DNA of 64,000 nucleotides from an uncultured Dehalococcoidia bacterium (GTDB lineage Bacteria > Chloroflexota > Dehalococcoidia > Lucifugimonadales > GCA-2712585): assembly GCA_964418665.1 (NCBI GenBank), contig CAYQLZ010000008.1, positions 29,924 through 93,923 on the forward strand. The letters run 5' to 3'. Below, one piece after another: positions 11,768 through 26,017 of this stretch; the first letter of the stretch is position 1, and every line of letters begins with the position of its first letter. The position numbers were made by a program, and so were the translations under genes. A model generated the notes under the pieces. The model was not told where the DNA came from. It made no database searches and worked only from the letters and a program-made list of their open reading frames with translations.

Positions 11768-12120
11768 CGCATTCCTGTTCCTGCGCAGGCAGGAACCCAC
11801 CCTCAACCCACGTCCCACCCTCCGCAATGGCTGCTCCCTCCCCCTCCCTGACCCCCGTAGGGGCGGTTCGTGAACCGCCCTCCCCCTCACCTCAACCATC
11901 CCGGTAGGGGCAGGTTTCAAACCTGCCCTCCCCCACACGTTATTCCAAACAAATCGAAGAATCTCGCCCCCTGTATGGAGTATGATACAGATAACCTCAG
12001 CCGAAGAGATTACACACAAAGCCCCCAACCAGGGAGAACCCCTCTTGCCTCTTCCCCCTTCATGGGGGAAGATTGAGCCTGTCCCGAGCTTGTCGAAGGG
12101 ATGGGGGTGATCCGGGTGGC
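11768..12120. repeat. mosaic cluster of hairpin repeats (families F, A, A, B)
   Basis: TTCCTGCgcagGCAGGAA (11774-11797). GTAGGGGCGGTTCGTGAACCGCCC (11857-11885). GTAGGGGCAGGTTTCAAACCTGCCC (11903-11933). CTTCCCCCttcatGGGGGAAGattgagcctgtcccgagcttgtcgaagggatgggggtgat (12050-12118). Confidence 0.85.
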
Positions 12121-12175
12121 GGGTCGAGAGGATCGGGAAGCTAACCCAACAGTCTCCATTAAAGGAGGTGACGAC

Positions 12176-12994
12176 ATGGATCTGGGACTCACAGACAAGA
12201 AAGCAATTGTGGCCGGCGGTGGCCGTGGCATCGGCAAAGCCATCGCCATGGAACTCGCCCGCGAGGGCGCCGACGTGGTCGTCGTTTCCCGCACCCAGGA
12301 TGAACTTGACCTTACCGCCCGCGAAATCGCCGACGAAACAGGAAGGCTCGTCTACCCCCTCTCCTTTGACGTCACCAACACCGAGCAGGTGAACTGGGGC
12401 GTCAAGCAGGCCGCCGCCGCCCTCGGCGGACTCCACATTCTCGTCAACAGCGCCGCCCTTCCCGGCGGCTCCCCGGAGGCCATCGGCCCCGTCGAAACCG
12501 TCGACGAAGAAATCCTCAAGTGGGACTTCGACGTCAAGTACGTGGGCGCTCTCCGGCTTGCCAAGGCCGCCATCCCCTTCCTCAAGGAAGCCGGCTGGGG
12601 ACGCATCATCAACATCAGCGGCGGCAACGCCCGCGCCGCCGGCAACCTCAGTGGCGGCGCCCGCAACGTCTCCCTAGTCCACTTCACCAAGTCCCTCTCC
12701 ATCCAGTTGGGACGATTCGGCATCACCGTCAACTGCATCCACCCGGGCACAACTCGCACCGAACGCACTCCCGTAATGTTCTCCGAACGAGGCGCGGAAC
12801 TCGGCGTCGACGCCGAAGAAGTGGAACGCAGAGACTTCGCCGAAGGTTCTCCCGCCGCCAACGCCATCGGCCGCATGGTCGACGCTCAGGAAGTCGGCTA
12901 CGTCGCCGCCTACCTCGCTTCCGACAAAGCCTGGGCCGTCACCGGCGAAGTCCTCGCCGCAGGCGGCGGCGTCGGCACCGCCGTCTACTACTAA
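12176..12994 (+). CDS. short-chain dehydrogenase/reductase (SDR) family oxidoreductase
   Basis: ATG at 12176 preceded by AAAGGAGG. Rossmann motif IVAGGGRGIGKAIA and an SDR-like length (272 aa). Confidence 0.85.
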   Translation: MDLGLTDKKAIVAGGGRGIGKAIAMELAREGADVVVVSRTQDELDLTAREIADETGRLVYPLSFDVTNTEQVNWGVKQAAAALGGLHILVNSAALPGGSPEAIGPVETVDEEILKWDFDVKYVGALRLAKAAIPFLKEAGWGRIINISGGNARAAGNLSGGARNVSLVHFTKSLSIQLGRFGITVNCIHPGTTRTERTPVMFSERGAELGVDAEEVERRDFAEGSPAANAIGRMVDAQEVGYVAAYLASDKAWAVTGEVLAAGGGVGTAVYY

Positions 12995-13009
12995 CCCCCA
13001 GCAGACCGC

Positions 13010-13452: not shown

Positions 13453-13481
13453 TTGACAGCCCCAGAGAAAGACGCTATTCT
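13453..13481 (+). promoter_or_regulatory. candidate sigma70-type promoter at the left edge of the low-G+C insert
   Basis: TTGACA (13453-13458), 17-nt spacer, TATTCT (13476-13481). It lies about 210 nt upstream of the first cassette gene. An alternative is TTGCAA (13489) with CATACT (13512). Confidence 0.35.
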
Positions 13482-13499
13482 ATCGCGCTTGCAACTAAT

Positions 13500-13569
13500 G
13501 ATAGCCAGTATCATACTATAAGTAGCAAACTAACCGAATTACCCCCAAGAAACGATAGGACATATCATA
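13500..13569 (+). promoter_or_regulatory. direct repeats GATAGnnnnTATCATA (possible operator/iteron)
   Basis: GATAGCCAGTATCATA (13500-13515) and GATAGGACATATCATA (13554-13569), 54 nt apart. Partial copies are tGATATCAT (13579) and cGATAGaaattcg (13608). Confidence 0.35.
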
Positions 13570-13698
13570 AGGTTGGGTGATATCATTTCCACACTGCGAA
13601 CAAGGTCGATAGAAATTCGTCGCGATTGAAGTCTACGAACCGAAAACTGAAAGTCCATTGGCGAATTTGAGCTTGAACATCAATGCACGAGGTGAAAC

Positions 13699-13893
13699 AT
13701 GGAATTCTATAACGTGAAGACCAGGCAAAAGGTGGACATACCGGAAAGCGGCCTCAAGAAACGTACCATGGTGCAGAAGAACGGCAGGCAGACCTATGCC
13801 GTTACCGGCGAGGAAAACGGCACCCGGCTGGTTAGGTTTGTCAGCAAACAGCAGTATGATGCCTTGCAAGTGCCAGAGGTTGAAGGCTCCTAG
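13699..13893 (+). CDS. small protein resembling a Cys-less zinc-ribbon (DUF5679-like) protein
   Basis: 64 aa with SD GAGGTG upstream of the ATG. MEFYNVKTRQKV...MVQKNGRQTYAVTGEENGTRLVRFVS follows the Y-C-V-K-C-R-x-K...MKNGR-x-A-x-G-x-C-P-x-C-G-T-K-x-x-R-I pattern I recall for DUF5679. All four Cys ligands are replaced. Confidence 0.55.
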   Translation: MEFYNVKTRQKVDIPESGLKKRTMVQKNGRQTYAVTGEENGTRLVRFVSKQQYDALQVPEVEGS

Positions 13894-13902
13894 GGAGACG
13901 TT

Positions 13903-14427
13903 ATGTGGTGGTTCAAACGCGCGGTACTACGTCCGGTATTCGCTGAAGTCCAGGCGATGCACCCCTGGTTCCTGGACTACGACCAGTTGGAACCGGGGGT
14001 CAGGGATCTGGTGTGGTCACTAAACCAGACCGACCTTGTTGAGACCCTCACCTCCTGTGAAGGTCACCCGGAACTGCCCTATTGGTGGGAGACCACCGGT
14101 GGCACGGCTTACGTTCTCTATCTGGTGACCAATCCCGGCCGGTGGGACCGCGTGTTGGACCGGTTGCGGCAGATGGCCCAGGACTGGAAGGATGTCCAAT
14201 TGATAGTGCGCGGCGAGCGGGAGCAATGGATGGGGTTTCAAGTCAGTCATGGCCCCACGGAATCTGACCGAAATGCCTTGGACGAGGCCATTCGCCAGAC
14301 TAGCGAACTGCTCAAAGAACACATAGACCATGATGTTGTTGCCCTGACCTCAGCCCTGCGTGAGCAGGAGAATCAAGGCCGCCAGAATGGTCCTCCACGT
14401 CTCGTCACAGGACTGGGGCAAGACTGA
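13903..14427 (+). CDS. hypothetical protein (174 aa), no family recognised
   Basis: SD GGGAG is 6 nt upstream of the ATG. There is a conserved-looking block LEPGVRDLVWSLNQTDLVETLTSCEGHPELPYWW. The gene sits between the two small paralogues. Confidence 0.55.
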   Translation: MWWFKRAVLRPVFAEVQAMHPWFLDYDQLEPGVRDLVWSLNQTDLVETLTSCEGHPELPYWWETTGGTAYVLYLVTNPGRWDRVLDRLRQMAQDWKDVQLIVRGEREQWMGFQVSHGPTESDRNALDEAIRQTSELLKEHIDHDVVALTSALREQENQGRQNGPPRLVTGLGQD

Positions 14428-14459
14428 GAGAAAGACCAACAGATCGACGGAGGTGTCCC

Positions 14460-14645
14460 TTGGAAGGACTAACTGCTTACTGCTTGCCACTGCGCAGGAG
14501 ATGCGAAATTCTGGAACCCCGTGTTATAACCATGAAGAATGGACGTAAGGCGGTACGGGGCAAGGCCAAAGATGCTCCCCAGTACACCGTTTTCCGAATC
14601 TTGAGCGACGCCGAAGCGAAGCAGCTGGAGTCCACCCCCGGCTAA
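14460..14645 (+). CDS. second DUF5679-like small protein (paralogue of 13699..13893)
   Basis: TTG start preceded by GGAGGT. TAYCLPLRRRCEILEPRVITMKNGRKAVRGKAKDAPQYTVFRILS keeps the MKNGR-x-A-x-x-G...(F/V)R(I/F)(L/V)S core. The second Cys pair is lost. Confidence 0.5.
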   Translation: MEGLTAYCLPLRRRCEILEPRVITMKNGRKAVRGKAKDAPQYTVFRILSDAEAKQLESTPG

Positions 14646-14712
14646 CAAAACAAGATCCCGGAGTACGCCGAATCCCACCATTCGCCCAGCTCCCCACCCA
14701 TAACCGCACCCC

Positions 14713-14936
14713 CCGTAATGTTCGCCGCACGAGGCGCGGATATGTGCATCGAAGCTGAAAAAGTGGGACGGTGCGACTTTGCCTCGGGTTCTCCCTCCGC
14801 CTTCGCCAGCCTCCGCATAGTCCACGCTCAGGAAGTAGGCTACGTCGCAGCCTACCTCGCCTCCGACAAAGCCTGGGCCGTCACCGGTGAAGTCCTCGCC
14901 GCAGGCAGCAGGGTCGGCAACGCCATCTACTACTAA
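14713..14936 (+). pseudogene. orphan duplicate of the 3' end of the SDR gene (12771..12994)
   Basis: 224 nt collinear with no indels against 12771-12994, at a constant offset of 1942. The last ~110 nt look about 90% identical by eye. Both copies end in ...YLASDKAWAVTGEVLAAG...YY-TAA. Confidence 0.85.
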
Positions 14937-14991
14937 TCCATGCACACTCCCCCTCGGCACAATTCGCGTAGGGGCGATTCGCGAACCGTCC

Positions 14992-15543
14992 TCAGGGTTT
15001 GAGGCCCTCTACAACTGCCTCGGGATTCTCTCGGTCCAATTCCCACTTCAGCGGGTTTTCTACAATATATTCCCTTGCCTGACTCAACTCATTCTCGTCA
15101 CGGATAACCCGCTCGTAATAATTCCGCTGCCACAGACGCCGGGAGGGAGAACCGCAAGAAAGATTGATCCGCTTGGTGCTTACAGTCTTGAACGCGCCAA
15201 TCAGACGCCCCAGAGGCTTCCGGCAGTTTTTCGTAGGGGCGGTTCGCGAACCGCCCTGACTTGGGATTGTGTCTAACACGATGATGCCATGCAAATGATT
15301 CGGCATTACTACGTATTCGTCTAACGAGACGTGAGGATATCGTATCCCCAGCCATTCCCAATATGTTGCAACTATTCGCCCCTCATCGTTCAACTCCATT
15401 TTCCCATCTATAATTTCGCCGAAACGGAGACTTCGGTCCCTAACTACTACGGTTACGAAATACGCTCCCGCGCGGGTGTAGTCATATCCTCTCAATCTGA
15501 TAGACCTGCGCCGATGAATGTCGGGATTGTAGCGTTGGTTCAA
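14992..15543 (-). CDS. REP-associated tyrosine transposase (IS200/IS605 Y1 family, RAYT)
   Basis: RLRGYDYTRAGAYFVTVV, the HUH motif MPNHLHGIIVL, and the catalytic Tyr context LWQRNYYERVIRDE. Likely TTG start at 15543. The ORF-track extension to 15753 runs through a REP and is rejected. Confidence 0.8.
   Translation of the reverse strand: MNQRYNPDIHRRRSIRLRGYDYTRAGAYFVTVVVRDRSLRFGEIIDGKMELNDEGRIVATYWEWLGIRYPHVSLDEYVVMPNHLHGIIVLDTIPSQGGSRTAPTKNCRKPLGRLIGAFKTVSTKRINLSCGSPSRRLWQRNYYERVIRDENELSQAREYIVENPLKWELDRENPEAVVEGLKP
15233..15258. repeat. REP palindrome (family A) embedded inside the RAYT coding sequence
   Basis: GTAGGGGCGGTTCGCGAACCGCCCTG, read on the minus strand, encodes ...QGGSRTAPT... 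in the loop between the HUH and Tyr motifs. Confidence 0.8.
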
Positions 15544-15619
15544 TGGTGCATCTCTAGCAAAATATGTACCGTTCCACGTAGGGGCGGTTCGCGAACCGCC
15601 CCTACAAAGGACGACGACC

Positions 15620-15868
<249 letters not shown>

Positions 15869-15963
15869 TCAATTGTCCCACTACAAGCGCAATTATTGAA
15901 GCCCGGTTCGTATCCTCAATCCAACCACGATGGTTGCCTTTGAGTAGGTTTCGGTGCTGATGG

Positions 15964-16395
15964 TCAAGATACCCTCAGTACGATGTCAGTAACGATACTG
16001 ACCAACAAGCTTCCAATCGCTATCCCAACCGCCATTTTGGCTAGTCGGTGTGTCTGGCTTTGTCTTGCATCGTCGTTTCGTAGCTTGTGAAGTGCGCGTG
16101 CGCCCTGATTGGACATTCCTTCATGCACTTCAACGAAGAAGCACCGGTCTTCCCTATCTTGTGTAAGCACTTCCTTCAGGCGAGGCTTTAAATCTGGATC
16201 AATTCCTGTGCTCCAAATCCCCTCGGAGCATTCTGCTGCCCACGGTGCAGGCAAGCTGAGACTCTCACGCTCATCCTTGTTCCAAGATAACGGCCTCTTC
16301 TCAATATCAGCGGCAATCATGGCGAATTCAGATAGAAATTGACAATTCTTGCAGCAGTGTTTCATTGATGTCGTCCTAAGTGCCTCCCCCCTCAC
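15964..16395 (-). CDS. hypothetical tail-anchored membrane protein with N-terminal CCxxC
   Basis: 143-aa ORF. GTG at 16395 is preceded by GGAGGTGGGG (alternative ATG at 16365). It has MKHCCKNCQF near the N-terminus and a single C-terminal TM (MAVGIAIGSLLVSIVTDIVL). G+C is lower than in the flanks. Confidence 0.45.
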   Translation of the reverse strand: MRGEALRTTSMKHCCKNCQFLSEFAMIAADIEKRPLSWNKDERESLSLPAPWAAECSEGIWSTGIDPDLKPRLKEVLTQDREDRCFFVEVHEGMSNQGARALHKLRNDDARQSQTHRLAKMAVGIAIGSLLVSIVTDIVLRVS

Positions 16396-16408
16396 ATCCC
16401 CACCTCCC

Positions 16409-16512
16409 TCAACCGCAGTTCATCCCCCTCACCACATCCAAATTATCTCCCGTCCACAGAGTCCGGCTGGAAAAATCAGGAGCGGTCCTTTGCCTTCAAT
16501 CTCTATTTCTCC
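16409..16512 (-). pseudogene. frameshifted N-terminal fragment of a DNA methyltransferase (paralogue of 20642..22078)
   Basis: The minus strand reads EIEIEGKGP, then a frameshift, then DFSSRTLWTGDNLDVVRGMN, then a stop. The intact gene has TIEVEAVGEPNFASRTLWTGDNLDVLRGMN. The DPPF motif and everything after it are missing. Confidence 0.7.
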
Positions 16513-16548
16513 GCATATCCCCCGTCCCCAGCCTCCGGCTGGCACGAA

Positions 16549-16764
16549 TCAGACCGGCACGCTCACATGGTACACCACGTCTGCGTCCTTCGGCGCATCC
16601 ACCCCATCGTCCCTCAACGTTTCGAGATACAACCCTATGGCTTCTTTGACGTTTTACAGCGTCTCGGGAATCGACTCGCCCTGAGAGTAACAGCCGGGCA
16701 GCGCGGGCACCTGCACCCAGAAACCGCCTTCCTCCGCTTTGTTTATAGCCACTGAGTATTCCAT
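16549..16764 (-). pseudogene. HicB-family antitoxin-like gene interrupted by an in-frame TAA
   Basis: MEYSVAINKAEEGGFWVQVPALPGCYSQGESIPETL-TAA-NVKEAIGLYLETLRDDGVDAPKDADVVYHVSVPV. The stop is at 16654-16656. No hicA was seen next to it. Confidence 0.65.
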
Positions 16765-16983
16765 CTCATGTACTCATTGCAGGGGACTACGGGCAGCCGA
16801 AGCATCTCTGCAAATCGGCGTGATAGCAAGAATTTGATACATGGACAACACTGATGCAGGCAGCATAGCCGTTTCGTCACAAGATTCGCCAGCCACTCCC
16901 CCCACCGTCATTCCGGCCCCCTTTCTCCGTACTCCCGCGCTCAGTCAAAGTCCCCCTCCCCCTTCCCTTCCCTACCATCAACA

Positions 16984-19733: not shown

Positions 19734-20597
19734 CTAAAACGCATCTCTACCTATATTGGTTGACGGGTTTTGAACAACTTTGTTTACCCATTTTGCCTTT
19801 TTGTGGAAGTAAATCCAGTTTTCCGCTGCAGATACGATGTGTCGGTTAAACTCCTTGGTGAATCGCGAATTAGCAGATTGGAAATCGAGTTCTCCCGGAG
19901 TAAGTTTCCAATTCCCTACCAGTGCAATGTCGGAAGCCAGGGCAAACATAAATTCTGCATTTTCATGTTTTAGTCCAGCCGTCTTGGAAACAAAAACTGG
20001 ATGGTCACTAGTCAAAAATCCATCAGCTGTGTCGACAGTGAAAACTTGCCAGTTCATTCTCATAATGTGATCGAGCACACCTGGCAACCCCAAAACATGG
20101 CGCAGTGCAGGCTCTTTCGTTCGAAGTGGATCACCTTGCATGCTATCTTCAATTCGAAGCAAGCTCATATACATGGGGGCAATTGGCAGGTTCCATTTTC
20201 TAGCGGCTTCCTCGGGATCTTGCAGTGCTTCTCCAATATCCTGAGACAGTGAATCGGCCATCCTCATTCTCATACGCTCTGTTCTAGCAATCATTACAGT
20301 TACATATCGTGCTACTGCAAGTCTTCCAGCCATATCAATGCATTGTTTCTCACGCAACTTGTTGAGGTGGGATATTGCGGGTCCCTCGACCTTCTCGCTT
20401 AGGAGTTGCTCTAATTCGGGAGGAAAAAAGTCTTTCCTCTGACCTGCTCTCATGATGGGAAGCTCTTCCCAAGTGCCCTTGCGTATGTTGAATCGCCAAA
20501 TCAAGTCTGGATTGTGTTTTGTGGCGAAGTGTTTAAGGTACTCCTGTGGAGTAATGTGATTGTGAATTTTCATCGTCTTAATAATACGCGCTATCAT
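19734..20597 (-). CDS. DUF4238-family protein
   Basis: 287 aa, clearly AT-richer than its neighbours. N-terminal HNHITPQEYLKHF and the internal LTSDHPVF fit the DUF4238 signature (H-x-V-P-Q-x-Y-L..F, SDNP) as I recall it. Confidence 0.7.
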   Translation of the reverse strand: MIARIIKTMKIHNHITPQEYLKHFATKHNPDLIWRFNIRKGTWEELPIMRAGQRKDFFPPELEQLLSEKVEGPAISHLNKLREKQCIDMAGRLAVARYVTVMIARTERMRMRMADSLSQDIGEALQDPEEAARKWNLPIAPMYMSLLRIEDSMQGDPLRTKEPALRHVLGLPGVLDHIMRMNWQVFTVDTADGFLTSDHPVFVSKTAGLKHENAEFMFALASDIALVGNWKLTPGELDFQSANSRFTKEFNRHIVSAAENWIYFHKKAKWVNKVVQNPSTNIGRDAF

Positions 20598-20641
20598 TGC
20601 TGTTCTTGCGTATGACCTTTAGGTTGCCCTTCCTAACTTCC

Positions 20642-23532: not shown

Positions 23533-24177
23533 CTAGCTGCTTAGCCAGGCTATTTCGCCATGAATATCTTCAGGATGGGACTTGGAAGCGAAGACGGCGT
23601 ATTCTTCCTTGGCCGCGCCGATGGTCGTGTCTCCCCCATGTCCGGGATACACGTGGGTGTCGTCCGGCAGCGTCAGCAGACGCGAGGTGATGCTCTCCAC
23701 CAGCTGCTGAAAGGCCTCCGGCGACCGGCTGAAGCCGGGTCCGCCCGGAAACAGCGTGTCTCCCGAAAACAGGTGCTTGCCCGTGTGCAGGCAGACCGCG
23801 CCCGGTGTGTGGCCCGGCGTGAACATCACCTCCAGCGAGATGTCGCCAACCTGAATGGTGTCGCCGTCTTTCAGATAGAAGTCCACGTCACCCGCAGACA
23901 GGTTCGGCTCGTCCTGCTCGTGGATGCCAAGTTCCTTGCCCGTTCCGCCCTTGATTTCGCGCACCCCTGCAATGTGGTCGCTGTGCCCGTGGGTGATGAG
24001 AATCGCCTTGATCTTGGCGTCGCCAATCTCGTTCAGCAGCTTCTCCGGTTCCCCGGGAGCGTCGATGATTATCGCCTCGCCGGTGTTGGGACAGCGCACA
24101 ATGTATCCGTTGTTGTCCATATATGTCATGTGGGGTACCTTGATAATCTGTACCTCGCCGTCGTAGTGCAGGGGCAT
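23533..24177 (-). CDS. MBL-fold metallo-hydrolase (glyoxalase II-like)
   Basis: ATG at 24177 preceded by GGGAGGAAAC. Motif ITHGHSDH. The ORF-track start at 24261 is rejected as an extension. Confidence 0.85.
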   Translation of the reverse strand: MPLHYDGEVQIIKVPHMTYMDNNGYIVRCPNTGEAIIIDAPGEPEKLLNEIGDAKIKAILITHGHSDHIAGVREIKGGTGKELGIHEQDEPNLSAGDVDFYLKDGDTIQVGDISLEVMFTPGHTPGAVCLHTGKHLFSGDTLFPGGPGFSRSPEAFQQLVESITSRLLTLPDDTHVYPGHGGDTTIGAAKEEYAVFASKSHPEDIHGEIAWLSS

Positions 24178-24462
24178 GTTTCCTCCCGATTCAGGACTTT
24201 CGATTATCCTAGCAAATAGGGGCCGGAATTGAAACCGCGGCATCTCCCGAATCCCACCCAATCTTTCTAAGCGTCGCCCGGCCCCTAGCGTCTCCGGTCA
24301 CCAATGACACCCTCTGCTTGTCGGAAGGCAATCTACCTGCTACCCTTTTCCCCATGAATAGAACATTATCTCGTACAAATCCAGCCTCAGTCGCCCTACA
24401 CCTGCCCTTTATGCGACATAGTATCACATTAGCCGCCATTTTCCTCCCCATTTTTTCGGGAA

Positions 24463-24647: not shown

Positions 24648-24677
24648 TTGACACCCCCAAATCACCCTACCTAAGAT
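24648..24677 (+). promoter_or_regulatory. candidate sigma70-type promoter of lysA
   Basis: TTGACA (24648-24653), 18-nt spacer, TAAGAT (24672-24677). AGGAGG follows at 24691 and the ATG at 24704. Confidence 0.5.
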
Positions 24678-24703
24678 TGTTGCACCATTTAGGAGGAACG
24701 CCC

Positions 24704-26017
24704 ATGTTTCCCCGGAACGTCTTTCCCACCACCACCGAGGTCAACGAAGCCGGCCATCTCGTCATCGGCGGCTGCGATACCGTAGACCTGGCCTCCCGGT
24801 TCGGCACCCCACTCTACATCTTCGACGAGGCCACCCTCCGTGGACGCTGCAGAGGCTTCGTCCAGGAGTTCACCAAGCGCTACCCCAACACCCTCGTCGC
24901 CTACGCCAGTAAGGCATACGTCAACCCCGCCGTGGCCCGCATCTTCGCCGAGGAGGGCCTCGGGCTGGATGTCGTCTCCGGCGGAGAATTGGCCGTCGCC
25001 CAGGCCGTCGACTTCCCCAGGGAGAAGGTCTACTTCCACGGCAGCAACAAGACCGCCGCCGAGCTCAAGCAGGCCGTGGAGTGGAACATTGGCCGCATCG
25101 TCATCGATAGCTTCCACGAGCTCGCCCTCCTTGAAGAGGTGGCCGCCGCCGCGGGCAAGTCCCAGGAAGTCCTCCTCCGAGTCTCCCCCAGCATCGACCC
25201 CCACACCCACGAAAAAACCACCACCGGCGTCCTCGACAGCAAGTTCGGCTTTGCCATCGAGACCGGTCACGCCGCCGAGGCTGTCCGGCAGGCCGTCGCC
25301 GCCCCCCACCTGGACCTCAAGGGTCTCCACTTCCACCTCGGCTCCCCCATCTTCGAGCTCCAGCCCTACCGCGACGGCGTAGAAGTAGTCCTCGAATTCG
25401 CCGCCAGTATGCGCGAAGAAGGTCTGAAACTCGAGGAATTCAGCCCTGGCGGCGGTTTCGCCATCGCCTACAAGGGAGACCAGAACCCGCCCACCGACGC
25501 TGACTATGCGGACGCAATCATCGGCACCATGACCGCCGAGTGCGACCGGCTCGGCCTCGAACTTCCCCTCCTCACCATCGAACCCGGACGTTCCGTCGCC
25601 GGTCCCGCTGGCGTCGCCCTCTACCGCGTCGGCGCCGTCAAGGAGATCCCCGGCGTCCGCCGCTACGTCTCCGTCGACGGTGGTATGGGCGACAACATCC
25701 GCCCCGCCCTCTACGACGCTGCCTACGAAGCTGTCGTGGCCAACCGCGTCAACGACAGGGGCGAGCAGGTGGCGACCATCGCGGGCAAGTATTGTGAGTC
25801 CGGGGATGTCTTGGTGAAGGACGTTCTCCTCCCGGCCATCGATGGCAGCGGTAAGGACCTCATCGCCATCCCCGCCTCCGGCGCCTACTGCATTCCCATG
25901 GCCAGCAACTACAACCTGAATCCCAGGCCCCCCATCGTCCTCGTCAACGAAGGTCACGCTCGCCTCATCCGCCGCCGCGAGACCTTCCAGGACCAGATGC
26001 TCCTGGACGTTGCCTAA
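24704..26017 (+). CDS. lysA: diaminopimelate decarboxylase
   Basis: Orn/DAP/Arg decarboxylase fold: YASKAY (PLP Lys), SPGGGF, EPGRS, YCESGD. ATG at 24704 with AGGAGG upstream. Confidence 0.9.
   Translation: MFPRNVFPTTTEVNEAGHLVIGGCDTVDLASRFGTPLYIFDEATLRGRCRGFVQEFTKRYPNTLVAYASKAYVNPAVARIFAEEGLGLDVVSGGELAVAQAVDFPREKVYFHGSNKTAAELKQAVEWNIGRIVIDSFHELALLEEVAAAAGKSQEVLLRVSPSIDPHTHEKTTTGVLDSKFGFAIETGHAAEAVRQAVAAPHLDLKGLHFHLGSPIFELQPYRDGVEVVLEFAASMREEGLKLEEFSPGGGFAIAYKGDQNPPTDADYADAIIGTMTAECDRLGLELPLLTIEPGRSVAGPAGVALYRVGAVKEIPGVRRYVSVDGGMGDNIRPALYDAAYEAVVANRVNDRGEQVATIAGKYCESGDVLVKDVLLPAIDGSGKDLIAIPASGAYCIPMASNYNLNPRPPIVLVNEGHARLIRRRETFQDQMLLDVA

What the first reader, a model, noticed from the sequence alone, without database searches (positions are those of the whole stretch)
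13699..14645. Three-gene cassette of unknown function: two Cys-less zinc-ribbon-like mini-proteins flanking a 174-aa orphan
Three consecutive genes each have a good SD: 13699..13893, 13903..14427 and 14460..14645. The first and third are paralogues, sharing (T)M(V)(Q)KNGR-x-(x)-A-V-x-G ... (V/F)R(F/I)(V/L)S. Both follow the layout I remember for DUF5679 zinc-ribbon proteins (YCVKCRxK...TMKNGRxAxxGxCPxCGTKxxRI). However, they have lost all (first) or half (third) of the Cys ligands. The middle protein has a conserved-looking LEPGVRDLVWSLNQTDLVETLTSCEGHPELPYWW block that I cannot place in any family. The cassette sits in the inserted DNA between the SDR repeats, so it was probably acquired horizontally as a unit. 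Its function is open: a regulator/effector pair, a toxin-antitoxin-like module or a phage-derived module.
Basis: partly seen in the sequence, partly recalled or inferred. Interest (0 to 1): 0.65.

Follow-up and report, generated by a model that had tools for sequence, protein, structure and literature searches.

The report
Zinc-starvation cassette with cysteine-free ribbon paralogues
These are three real, linked genes that in related Dehalococcoidia sit inside or beside the zinc-uptake operon and share its operator: two are cysteine-free copies of a small zinc-ribbon protein (DUF5679) and one belongs to an uncharacterised conserved family, so the cassette is most likely a zinc-starvation back-up module rather than an orphan, toxin-antitoxin or phage unit.

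Summary
The three ORFs are real genes: A is 13699..13893, B is 13903..14427 and C is 14460..14645. Each has a Shine-Dalgarno site, and differences between orthologues concentrate at third codon positions.

B is not an orphan. It has more than 140 homologues and occurs in 54 Dehalococcoidia/SAR202 species, nearly always flanked by A and/or C.

In 16 of 56 loci the trio lies inside or next to a Fur-family regulator plus znuABC-type operon. This also holds for a B homologue only 33% identical. The transporter's binding protein has a three-histidine, His-rich-loop site of the zinc type.

A 15-bp palindrome (TGAKAYnnnRTMTCA) precedes the regulator gene, znuA and the trio. The two best matches in the whole 64-kb window lie 139 and 193 nt upstream of A; 0.035 such matches are expected by chance. 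One overlaps the -35 of a predicted promoter.

C is homologous to DUF5679 (hhalign 97%) and A probably is (78%). The cysteine ligands are replaced: four of four in A, three of four in C.

Best reading: a Zur-type, zinc-limitation operon encoding zinc-free DUF5679 substitutes plus partner B, which has an invariant SCxGH motif and no known fold relative. This is a new member of a known kind. There is no support for recent horizontal transfer or for a toxin-antitoxin or defence role.

The parts
13499..13513 (.). Operator-like palindrome 1 (TGATAGCCAGTATCA), distal box
   Evidence: It scores 15.0 bits against a PWM built only from related loci, the second-best hit in the 64-kb window. It lies 54 bp from box 2. 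Relatives show the same spacing and the same distance to gene B: -397 and -343.
13553..13567 (.). Operator-like palindrome 2 (CGATAGGACATATCA), proximal box
   Evidence: It scores 18.7 bits, the best hit in the window. None of 200 dinucleotide shuffles of the window reached this score. The local probability of one hit of at least 15 bits is 0.0014. It overlaps the -35 hexamer of the predicted promoter.
13557..13586 (+). Predicted sigma-70-type promoter: AGGACA, 18-nt spacer, extended -10 TGaTATCAT
   Evidence: This is a consensus scan only, 9 of 12 matches with TG before the -10. The implied start near 13594 coincides with the beginning of the conserved leader. A second candidate, TTGACA-17-TATTCT, lies at 13453-13481.
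13594..13698 (+). Conserved purine-rich 5' leader of gene A
   Evidence: It aligns across 25 loci. Mean pairwise difference is 0.27, against 0.59 for the DNA further upstream. No Rfam match and no consensus fold. Its function is unknown. It is more diverged in the window than in most relatives.
13699..13893 (+). Gene A: 64-aa protein with no cysteine, a DUF5679-derived paralogue
   Evidence: About 40 intact orthologues, 44-91% identical to the window's A in a 24-sequence alignment (77-91% within the main clade, 44-45% in SAR202). hhalign against genuine DUF5679 gives 78.5%, E 1.7e-5, over residues 1-50. N5, T8, E38 and N40 stand where the four ligand cysteines would be. No Pfam hit of its own.
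13903..14427 (+). Gene B: 174-aa core protein of the cassette, an uncharacterised family with an invariant SCxGH motif
   Evidence: 141 homologues. Residues V37, N41, T48, S51, C52, G54 and H55 are invariant even in 17-30% identical relatives. The AF2 model has pLDDT 84.9 and an alpha/beta fold. No PDB relative by sequence or fold. The only fold matches are uncharacterised jumbo-phage proteins, E 8e-6.
14460..14645 (+). Gene C: 61-aa DUF5679-derived paralogue that keeps one of the four ligand cysteines
   Evidence: 117 close homologues. All 23 orthologues scanned hit PF18930 below threshold, best E 5e-5. hhalign against genuine DUF5679 gives 97.1%, E 7.6e-11. A more distant orthologue (L180) has no cysteine at all.
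12770..12997 (+). 3' end of the intact SDR gene (12101..12994), first copy of the flanking repeat
   Evidence: The SDR-then-trio order is shared with L006.
14712..14939 (+). Duplicated SDR 3' fragment, at the start of a 2.28-kb block absent from the closest relative
   Evidence: It is 84% identical to 12770-12997. The block 14677-16956 has no counterpart in L006.

Best explanation
The cassette is a member of the zinc-limitation regulon of a Fur-family (Zur-type) repressor in a Dehalococcoidia bacterium.

Inferred mechanism. When zinc is sufficient, the zinc-loaded repressor binds two 15-bp palindromes 54 bp apart (13499-13513 and 13553-13567). The proximal one overlaps the -35 of the promoter and blocks transcription. 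When zinc runs short the repressor leaves, and a tricistronic mRNA of about 1.05 kb with a conserved leader of about 105 nt is made.

A and C are zinc-independent derivatives of the small, basic DUF5679 zinc-ribbon protein, which is common in Dehalococcoidia. Their ligand cysteines are replaced and they carry an added C-terminal helix-like tail. They are proposed to stand in for the zinc-requiring form, which keeps its unknown function going and spares or releases zinc. This is the same logic as the cysteine-free ribosomal-protein and DksA paralogues of other Zur regulons.

B is the constant core of the cassette and its genes are closely spaced with A and C. It is proposed to work together with the small proteins. 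Its invariant Ser-Cys-x-Gly-His loop, at the end of a beta-strand, suggests a metal or catalytic site. Its biochemical activity is not known.

Shown here: the genes are real and linked; they are conserved next to the zinc-uptake operon; the operator motif is shared; A and C are homologous to DUF5679; the cysteines are lost.

Inferred only: the repressor's identity and metal; the promoter; functional substitution; the role of B.
For: Synteny.
- A-B-C lies between znuC and znuB, behind znuB or znuA, or divergent from the regulator gene in 16 of 56 distinct loci.
- A B homologue only 33% identical sits in FUR-A-B-ZnuA-ZnuC-ZnuB (L181).
- A 34% identical one forms a B-C pair beside a CDF efflux pump and an ArsR/SmtB regulator (L180).

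Operator.
- The palindrome TGAKAYnnnRTMTCA was seeded from sites upstream of A. It was then found independently upstream of the FUR gene and of znuA in relatives, often as pairs about 55 bp apart.
- 62 of 107 hits fall in the 4.5% of sequence that lies within 560 nt upstream of B, and 40 of 58 loci have at least one there.
- The window was not used for training. Its two best hits lie upstream of A: 2 observed at 15 bits or more, against 0.035 expected.
- Box 2 overlaps the -35 of a predicted extended -10 promoter.

Zinc rather than another metal.
- The binding protein has His where PsaA has Glu205 and Gly where PsaA has Asp280. It also has a long His/Asp/Glu loop and scores best against AztC.
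- The rule that three His ligands mark ZnuA-type zinc binders is established knowledge of cluster A-I binding proteins.

Homology and ligand loss.

Genuine four-Cys DUF5679 proteins are named from Dehalococcoidia, Dehalococcoidales and Chloroflexota.

Precedent: Zur-regulated cysteine-free paralogues of ribosomal proteins and of DksA (PMC2770081; PMC5912738 and PMC5007448; mechanism of Zur boxes in PMC8000910).
Against: - The 64-kb window has no zur or znu gene, so regulation here rests on the two boxes alone.
- NCBIfam cannot assign the linked regulator to Zur. Its best sub-threshold matches are Fur and PerR. The outer half-sites TGATA/TATCA also resemble classical Fur boxes (my own knowledge).
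- No expression data could be obtained.
- A's link to DUF5679 is moderate (78%) and A has no Pfam hit.
- I could not show that the trio-bearing genomes also encode a four-Cys DUF5679 for A and C to replace.
- C8 is invariant in C, so some metal or redox role is not excluded.
- The substitution model does not explain B, and B homologues at 27% identity or less lie outside zinc contexts.
- A or C is missing or broken in roughly half of the loci, so neither small protein is indispensable.
Confidence: 0.7

Rival explanations
1. B is the effector, an enzyme or RNA-associated factor needed when zinc is low. A and C are its accessory subunits or adaptors, not replacements for the four-Cys DUF5679 proteins. 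This partly overlaps the best explanation: the regulation is the same and only the role of A and C differs.
For: B is present in every locus, while A or C is often lost or frameshifted. The gaps are short: 9 nt between A and B, and 32 nt or an overlap between B and C. B has an invariant SCxGH motif. An RRM_1 RNA-binding gene lies inside the cassette in SAR202 (L057) and directly upstream of distant B homologues in L182 and L193.
Against: Four-Cys DUF5679 genes are stand-alone and are never next to a B-like gene, in about 80 metagenome loci and 6 Dehalococcoidales loci. DUF5679 proteins therefore do not generally need a B partner. Loss of exactly the ligand cysteines in a zinc-regulated context is what the substitution model predicts.
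Confidence: 0.2
2. The linked Fur-family regulator senses iron, manganese or peroxide (Fur, Mur or PerR). The cysteine-free proteins would then be oxidation-resistant or otherwise metal-related variants, not zinc-sparing ones.
For: NCBIfam's best sub-threshold hits for the regulator are Fur and PerR models. The ATPase and binding protein also score against Mn-transporter models. The box half-sites resemble Fur boxes (my own knowledge).
Against: The binding protein has the three-His, no-Asp site and the His-rich loop of zinc-specific ZnuA-type proteins. The permease and binding protein score best against AztB and AztC. One homologous pair sits next to a CDF/ArsR-SmtB zinc-efflux pair. What A and C have lost is a zinc site.
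Confidence: 0.08
3. The cassette is a horizontally acquired toxin-antitoxin, defence or phage-derived module.
For: GC is lower than in the flanks and the cassette lies between repeats, near a RAYT-like transposase and REP-like repeats. B's only fold relatives are uncharacterised jumbo-phage proteins, and it has weak PHROG hits.
Against: No PADLOC, Pfam or NCBIfam toxin, antitoxin or defence match. The cassette is confined to one bacterial class, with conserved chromosomal synteny to znuABC. The same flanks occur in another species. The GC offset is seen in all 46 loci measured.
Confidence: 0.03

Closest known systems
Zur-regulated cysteine-free (C-) paralogues of zinc-ribbon ribosomal proteins (L31, L33, L36, S14, S18, L28; the mycobacterial AltRP operon)
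   Same: They are small basic zinc-ribbon proteins whose Cys ligands are replaced. Their genes lie behind a Fur-family operator, often beside znuABC, and several sit together in one operon. The logic is substitution and zinc sparing (PMC5912738, PMC5007448, PMC2770081).
   Different: A and C are not ribosomal-protein paralogues. They derive from DUF5679, whose function is unknown. The operon also carries a 174-aa protein with no counterpart in those operons. Induction by zinc limitation is not shown here.
DksA2 and other non-ribosomal Zur-regulated paralogues (FolE2, HemB2, PyrC2)
   Same: This is a precedent for a non-ribosomal zinc-finger protein (DksA, C4 type) that has a Zur-regulated paralogue lacking the finger cysteines (PMC2770081).
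   Different: The protein family differs. Here two distinct cysteine-free paralogues flank a third gene. The organisms are Chloroflexota, not Proteobacteria.
DUF5679 (Pfam PF18930), four-cysteine zinc-ribbon mini-proteins
   Same: The layout is shared: Y-C-x-K-C ... (T)MKNGR ... G-x-C-P-x-C-G-T-K-x-F-(K/R)-I. The basic core and the length of the ribbon part also match. hhalign gives 97% for C and 78% for A.
   Different: The ligand cysteines are replaced. A has a 4-residue insertion in the first hairpin. Both carry an extra C-terminal tail of about 15 residues. Both score below Pfam's threshold. Unlike the stand-alone four-Cys genes, they are operonic with B and carry the operator.
Fur-family operators (7-1-7 type Fur/Zur/PerR boxes)
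   Same: It is a 15-bp AT-rich palindrome with TGATA/TATCA outer half-sites. It occurs in front of the regulator's own gene and the uptake operon, and it overlaps a promoter element.
   Different: The consensus TGAKAYnnnRTMTCA, with a variable 3-5 bp centre and frequent pairs about 55 bp apart, was derived here and has not been tested. I found no published operator for Dehalococcoidia to compare it with.

Membership tests
DUF5679 (PF18930) | Match to the Pfam model at or above the gathering score (27 bits) | tested here: not met
   A has no hit: 0 of 24 orthologues. C scores 17.4 bits, E 0.005. All 23 orthologues scanned hit, best E 5e-5; the window's own C scores below the 27-bit cut-off. Genuine members score 58 bits or more.
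DUF5679 (PF18930) | Four cysteine ligands in two knuckles (CxxC ... CPxCG) | tested here: not met
   A keeps 0 of 4 and C keeps 1 of 4 (C8) in the hhalign and pairwise alignments. The L180 orthologue of C keeps 0 of 4.
DUF5679 (PF18930) | Common descent, tested by profile-profile similarity over the whole ribbon, including the KNGR core | tested here: met
   C family against 24 genuine members: probability 97.1%, E 7.6e-11. A family: 78.5%, E 1.7e-5, which is moderate.
Zur (zinc-uptake regulator) regulon | Fur-family operator upstream, shared with the regulator gene and the zinc-uptake operon | tested here: met
   The same palindrome lies upstream of A/B, FUR and znuA in relatives. The two top-scoring sites of the window lie upstream of A.
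Zur (zinc-uptake regulator) regulon | Conserved linkage to zur-znuABC | tested here: met
   Found in 16 of 56 loci, plus L181 at 33% identity. Not met in the window itself, which has no znu or fur gene in 64 kb.
Zur (zinc-uptake regulator) regulon | The regulator senses zinc and the transporter is zinc-specific | tested here: inconclusive
   The regulator cannot be assigned. The binding protein has a three-His site and a His-rich loop of the zinc type.
Zur (zinc-uptake regulator) regulon | Derepression under zinc limitation | not testable with these tools
Zinc-independent (C-) paralogue of a zinc protein | A zinc-binding (C+) counterpart is encoded in the same genome | not testable with these tools
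   No C+ gene in the window or in the 56 loci. C+ genes do exist in Dehalococcoidia in general. Whole genomes could not be scanned.
Zinc-independent (C-) paralogue of a zinc protein | Functional substitution without zinc | not testable with these tools
   This needs biochemistry or genetics.
Toxin-antitoxin or anti-phage defence system | Match to known toxin, antitoxin or defence models, and a variable island context | tested here: not met
   Nothing significant in PADLOC, Pfam or NCBIfam. The context is conserved chromosomal synteny.

The most novel reading that the evidence does not exclude
DUF5679 proteins would be abundant small RNA- or ribosome-associated zinc proteins of Chloroflexota and other phyla. 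B would be a new zinc-starvation factor (SCxGH family) that works with their zinc-free forms A and C, for example by installing or exchanging them on their target. That would make it a non-ribosomal-protein analogue of alternative-ribosome remodelling. The hints are the RRM genes next to B in two clades, the conserved purine-rich leader and the near-invariant first 36 nt of A.
Probability: 0.15. Interest if true: 0.75.

Novelty: new member of a known kind. Interest (0 to 1): 0.55.

Why it matters
It gives a first functional handle on two uncharacterised families.

DUF5679 has thousands of members in Chloroflexota, Actinomycetota, Bacteroidota and Thaumarchaeota. No paper in the searched library discusses its function. 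If cells keep a zinc-free spare under Zur-type control, the protein is probably abundant or important enough to matter for the zinc budget, as ribosomal proteins are.

The work also defines a candidate Fur-family operator and zinc regulon for Dehalococcoidia/SAR202. These are major, mostly uncultured groups, so the prediction could be tested in metatranscriptomes.

Finally, it flags a conserved protein (B) as a candidate new player in bacterial zinc starvation.

Tried and rejected
- Family scans of A, B and C (Pfam, NCBIfam, PHROGs, PADLOC): only the weak DUF5679 hit of C.
- PDB sequence searches with single proteins and with a B profile: nothing.
- First AF2 run of B, with close homologues only: unusable, pLDDT 55. 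A deeper alignment gave 84.9.
- Foldseek against PDB: no hit with E of 0.001 or better. BFVD returned only uncharacterised phage proteins.
- The homologue search with C and the profile search with B returned only close orthologues in the listed rows. Genuine DUF5679 genes had to be fished out with a degenerate DNA pattern.
- Neighbours of four-Cys DUF5679 genes: no recurrent partner and no B-like gene.
- Leader RNA: no Rfam family and no consensus structure. The MRSD mini-ORF is rejected because its ATG is not conserved. A 12-nt leader/CDS repeat is exact in only 3 loci, so I dropped it.
- Assigning the regulator to Zur with NCBIfam: inconclusive.
- Literature on DUF5679: nothing relevant.

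Full report
**Observation**

The three ORFs exist as described: A 13699..13893 (64 aa), B 13903..14427 (174 aa) and C 14460..14645 (61 aa, TTG start). Each is preceded by a purine-rich ribosome-binding site.

They are genuine genes. Among about 40 orthologues of each, nucleotide differences are two to three times more frequent at third codon positions: A 0.12/0.11/0.29, B 0.11/0.08/0.22, C 0.12/0.07/0.25. C's start codon is ATG in 35 of 40 relatives.

The 3' end of the upstream SDR gene is repeated downstream of the cassette: 12770-12997 and 14712-14939, 84% identical. GC falls from about 63-66% to 43-58% in between.

**B is not an orphan**

A search of 5.8 billion proteins gave 141 homologues at 63-84% identity and no family name; the only organism names attached to any of them are Dehalococcoidia. 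A scan of GTDB species genomes gave 54 loci, all Dehalococcoidia or SAR202.

An exhaustive profile search of 1.84 billion cluster representatives found only 43 proteins, so the wider family is small. Seven positions stay invariant down to 17-30% identity: V37, N41, T48, S51, C52, G54 and H55.

Pfam, NCBIfam, PADLOC and PDB give nothing.

With the deeper alignment, AlphaFold gives a confident model: pLDDT 84.9, with a helix, then a four-stranded sheet interleaved with helices. The SCEGH loop sits at the end of strand 1.

Foldseek finds no solved relative. It finds only uncharacterised jumbo-phage proteins in BFVD, best E 8e-6. This agrees with the weak PHROG hits.

**Context in relatives**

The gene order 64 aa, about 175 aa, about 61 aa recurs.

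In 16 of 56 distinct loci the trio is inside or next to a Fur-family regulator plus ZnuA/ZnuC/ZnuB-type ABC transporter. The arrangements are:
- between znuC and znuB (L001, L019, L059);
- directly behind znuB (L002, L026, L031, L040, L044, L046, L053, L055) or znuA (L013, L054);
- divergent from the regulator gene (L010, L018);
- in front of the regulator gene (L057).

A B homologue of only 33% identity lies in FUR-A-B-ZnuA-ZnuC-ZnuB (L181). A 34% identical one forms a B-C pair beside a CDF efflux pump and an ArsR/SmtB regulator (L180). Its C-like protein has no cysteine at all.

Homologues at 27% identity or less are not in metal contexts.

The window itself has no znu or fur gene.

**Which metal**

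The binding protein of L001 aligns with the manganese protein PsaA. It has His at the Glu205 position and Gly at the Asp280 position, and a long His/Asp/Glu-rich insert. By established knowledge of cluster A-I binding proteins, this is the zinc-specific ZnuA pattern.

Its best NCBIfam models are AztC and AztB, below their cut-offs. NCBIfam cannot assign the regulator itself to Zur.

**Operator**

Upstream of A, most loci carry a palindrome. A matrix seeded from these sites also picked out sites in front of the Fur-family gene and of znuA in the relatives, often in pairs about 55 bp apart. The consensus is TGAKAYnnnRTMTCA.

Of 107 hits in 720 kb of loci, 62 lie in the 560 nt upstream of B. Forty of 58 loci have at least one there. 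Most loci without one are those where the trio follows znu genes in the same operon.

The window was not used to build the matrix. Its two best hits on either strand are 13550-13570 (18.7 bits) and 13496-13516 (15.0 bits). They lie 54 bp apart, at -343 and -397 from B, the same positions as in many relatives.

Shuffled windows give 0.035 hits of 15 bits or more. The local probability is 0.0014.

A consensus scan places an extended -10 promoter (AGGACA, 18-nt spacer, TGaTATCAT) at 13557-13586, with its -35 inside the proximal box. That is the usual geometry of Zur repression (PMC8000910).

The implied 5' UTR of about 105 nt matches a purine-rich leader that is conserved across loci: pairwise difference 0.27 against 0.59 further upstream. 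It has no Rfam match and no consensus fold.

**The small proteins**

Genuine DUF5679 genes were collected from metagenomes with a degenerate pattern for MKNGR...CPxCG. All 24 tested are bona fide PF18930 members, best E 2.4e-19.

Against their profile, the C family scores 97.1% (E 7.6e-11) and the A family 78.5% (E 1.7e-5). A against C directly is weak at 13%.

In these alignments C keeps only the first ligand cysteine, C8. L11, A36 and A39 replace the others, and C15 is at a non-ligand position. A has N5, T8, E38 and N40 at the four positions and contains no cysteine. Both have an extra C-terminal tail.

Four-Cys DUF5679 proteins are common in Dehalococcoidia, Dehalococcoidales and Chloroflexota, and also occur in Solirubrobacterales, Flavobacteriaceae and Nitrosopumilales. 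Their genes stand alone among housekeeping genes, with no B-like neighbour. No paper in the searched library discusses what the family does.

**Interpretation**

The pattern has three elements: small basic zinc-ribbon proteins with their ligands replaced, genes behind a Fur-family operator, and a location in or beside the zinc-uptake operon. This is the signature of Zur-regulated zinc-independent paralogues, known for ribosomal proteins and for DksA (PMC2770081; PMC5912738 and PMC5007448).

I therefore read A and C as zinc-free stand-ins for DUF5679, made when zinc is scarce.

B is the constant member. A or C is missing, truncated or frameshifted in about half of the loci. B's invariant Cys/His loop and its tight spacing with A and C suggest a partner with a metal or catalytic site. 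Its activity remains unknown.

An RRM-type RNA-binding gene lies inside the cassette in one SAR202 genome and directly upstream of distant B homologues. This is a weak hint towards RNA.

**Horizontal transfer**

The closest other species (L006) has the same NHL-SDR-trio-S-Me-THD order, with 77-87% DNA identity across the aligned segments. The window differs by a 2.28-kb block downstream of C (14677-16956). That block begins with the SDR fragment and carries a RAYT-like ORF, a DUF433 gene and an unassigned 143-aa ORF.

The trio's GC is about 5 points below its flanks in all 46 loci measured. There is thus no sign of recent acquisition. The cassette has instead been separated from the znu operon by rearrangement in many lineages, and it keeps its own operator.

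**Limits**

- No expression data.
- The regulator and its metal are inferred.
- The promoter is a consensus match only.
- The presence of a four-Cys DUF5679 gene in the same genome is not shown.
- B is unexplained.

Noticed in passing
window 20579-20599 and 24409-24429: Two further matches to the operator matrix (12.7 and 12.8 bits). With them the window has 4 hits of 12 bits or more, against 0.11 expected by shuffling. One overlaps the start of a DUF4238 ORF (19734..20597, minus strand). The other lies between an MBL-fold hydrolase gene (23533..24261, minus strand; a family that usually uses zinc) and lysA (24677..26017). They may be further regulon members.
   Followed up: partly
window 11853-11927, 14964-14991, 15229-15264, 15574-15608; ORF 14992..15753 (-): REP-like palindromic repeats (GTAGGGGCGGTTCGCGAACCGCCC) are scattered around a 253-aa ORF with a weak IS200-like Y1 transposase match (a RAYT-like arrangement). 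Two of the copies lie inside the ORF as called.
   Followed up: no
window 14677-16956: This 2.28-kb block is absent from the closest relative L006. It holds the SDR 3' fragment, the RAYT-like ORF, a DUF433 gene (15620..15838, minus strand) and an unassigned 143-aa ORF (15964..16395, minus strand).
   Followed up: partly
window 13594-13734 and A7 alignment: The 105-nt leader is conserved, purine-rich and predicted to be unstructured. The first 36 nt of gene A are nearly invariant even at synonymous sites. This suggests a constraint at the RNA level around the start of A. The leader is more diverged in the window than in most relatives.
   Followed up: partly
window 14425-14472: B ends at TGA (14425-14427). 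The next 14 in-frame codons (EKDQQIDGGVPWKD, then stop) match the C-terminal tail of the longer homologues (188 aa), whose reading frame overlaps the start of C. The window therefore has a shortened B, or the tail is dispensable.
   Followed up: partly
L057:719-1150; L182:3562-3867; L193:570-908: An RRM_1 RNA-binding protein gene lies between B and C in a SAR202 genome, and directly upstream of distant B homologues (27% identity) in two other contigs.
   Followed up: partly
L017, L029, L034, L037, L040, L044, L045, L047, L050, L052, L056 (upstream of B): Gene A is lost, frameshifted or reduced to a remnant; in six of these loci the tail ...LQVPEIEG is still readable. C is likewise absent or degenerate in about ten loci. 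B is always kept.
   Followed up: partly
L181:1703-3973; L002:1-1880: The ZnuA-like binding proteins here are 756-809 aa long. In L181 an insert of about 400 residues sits at the position where L001 has a His/Asp/Glu-rich loop.
   Followed up: no
L063-L120 (for example L066, L076): A soil subfamily of DUF5679 (Solirubrobacterales) has Glu in place of the second ligand cysteine (YCVKERKK...). Partial loss of ligands therefore also occurs outside the zinc-operon context.
   Followed up: no
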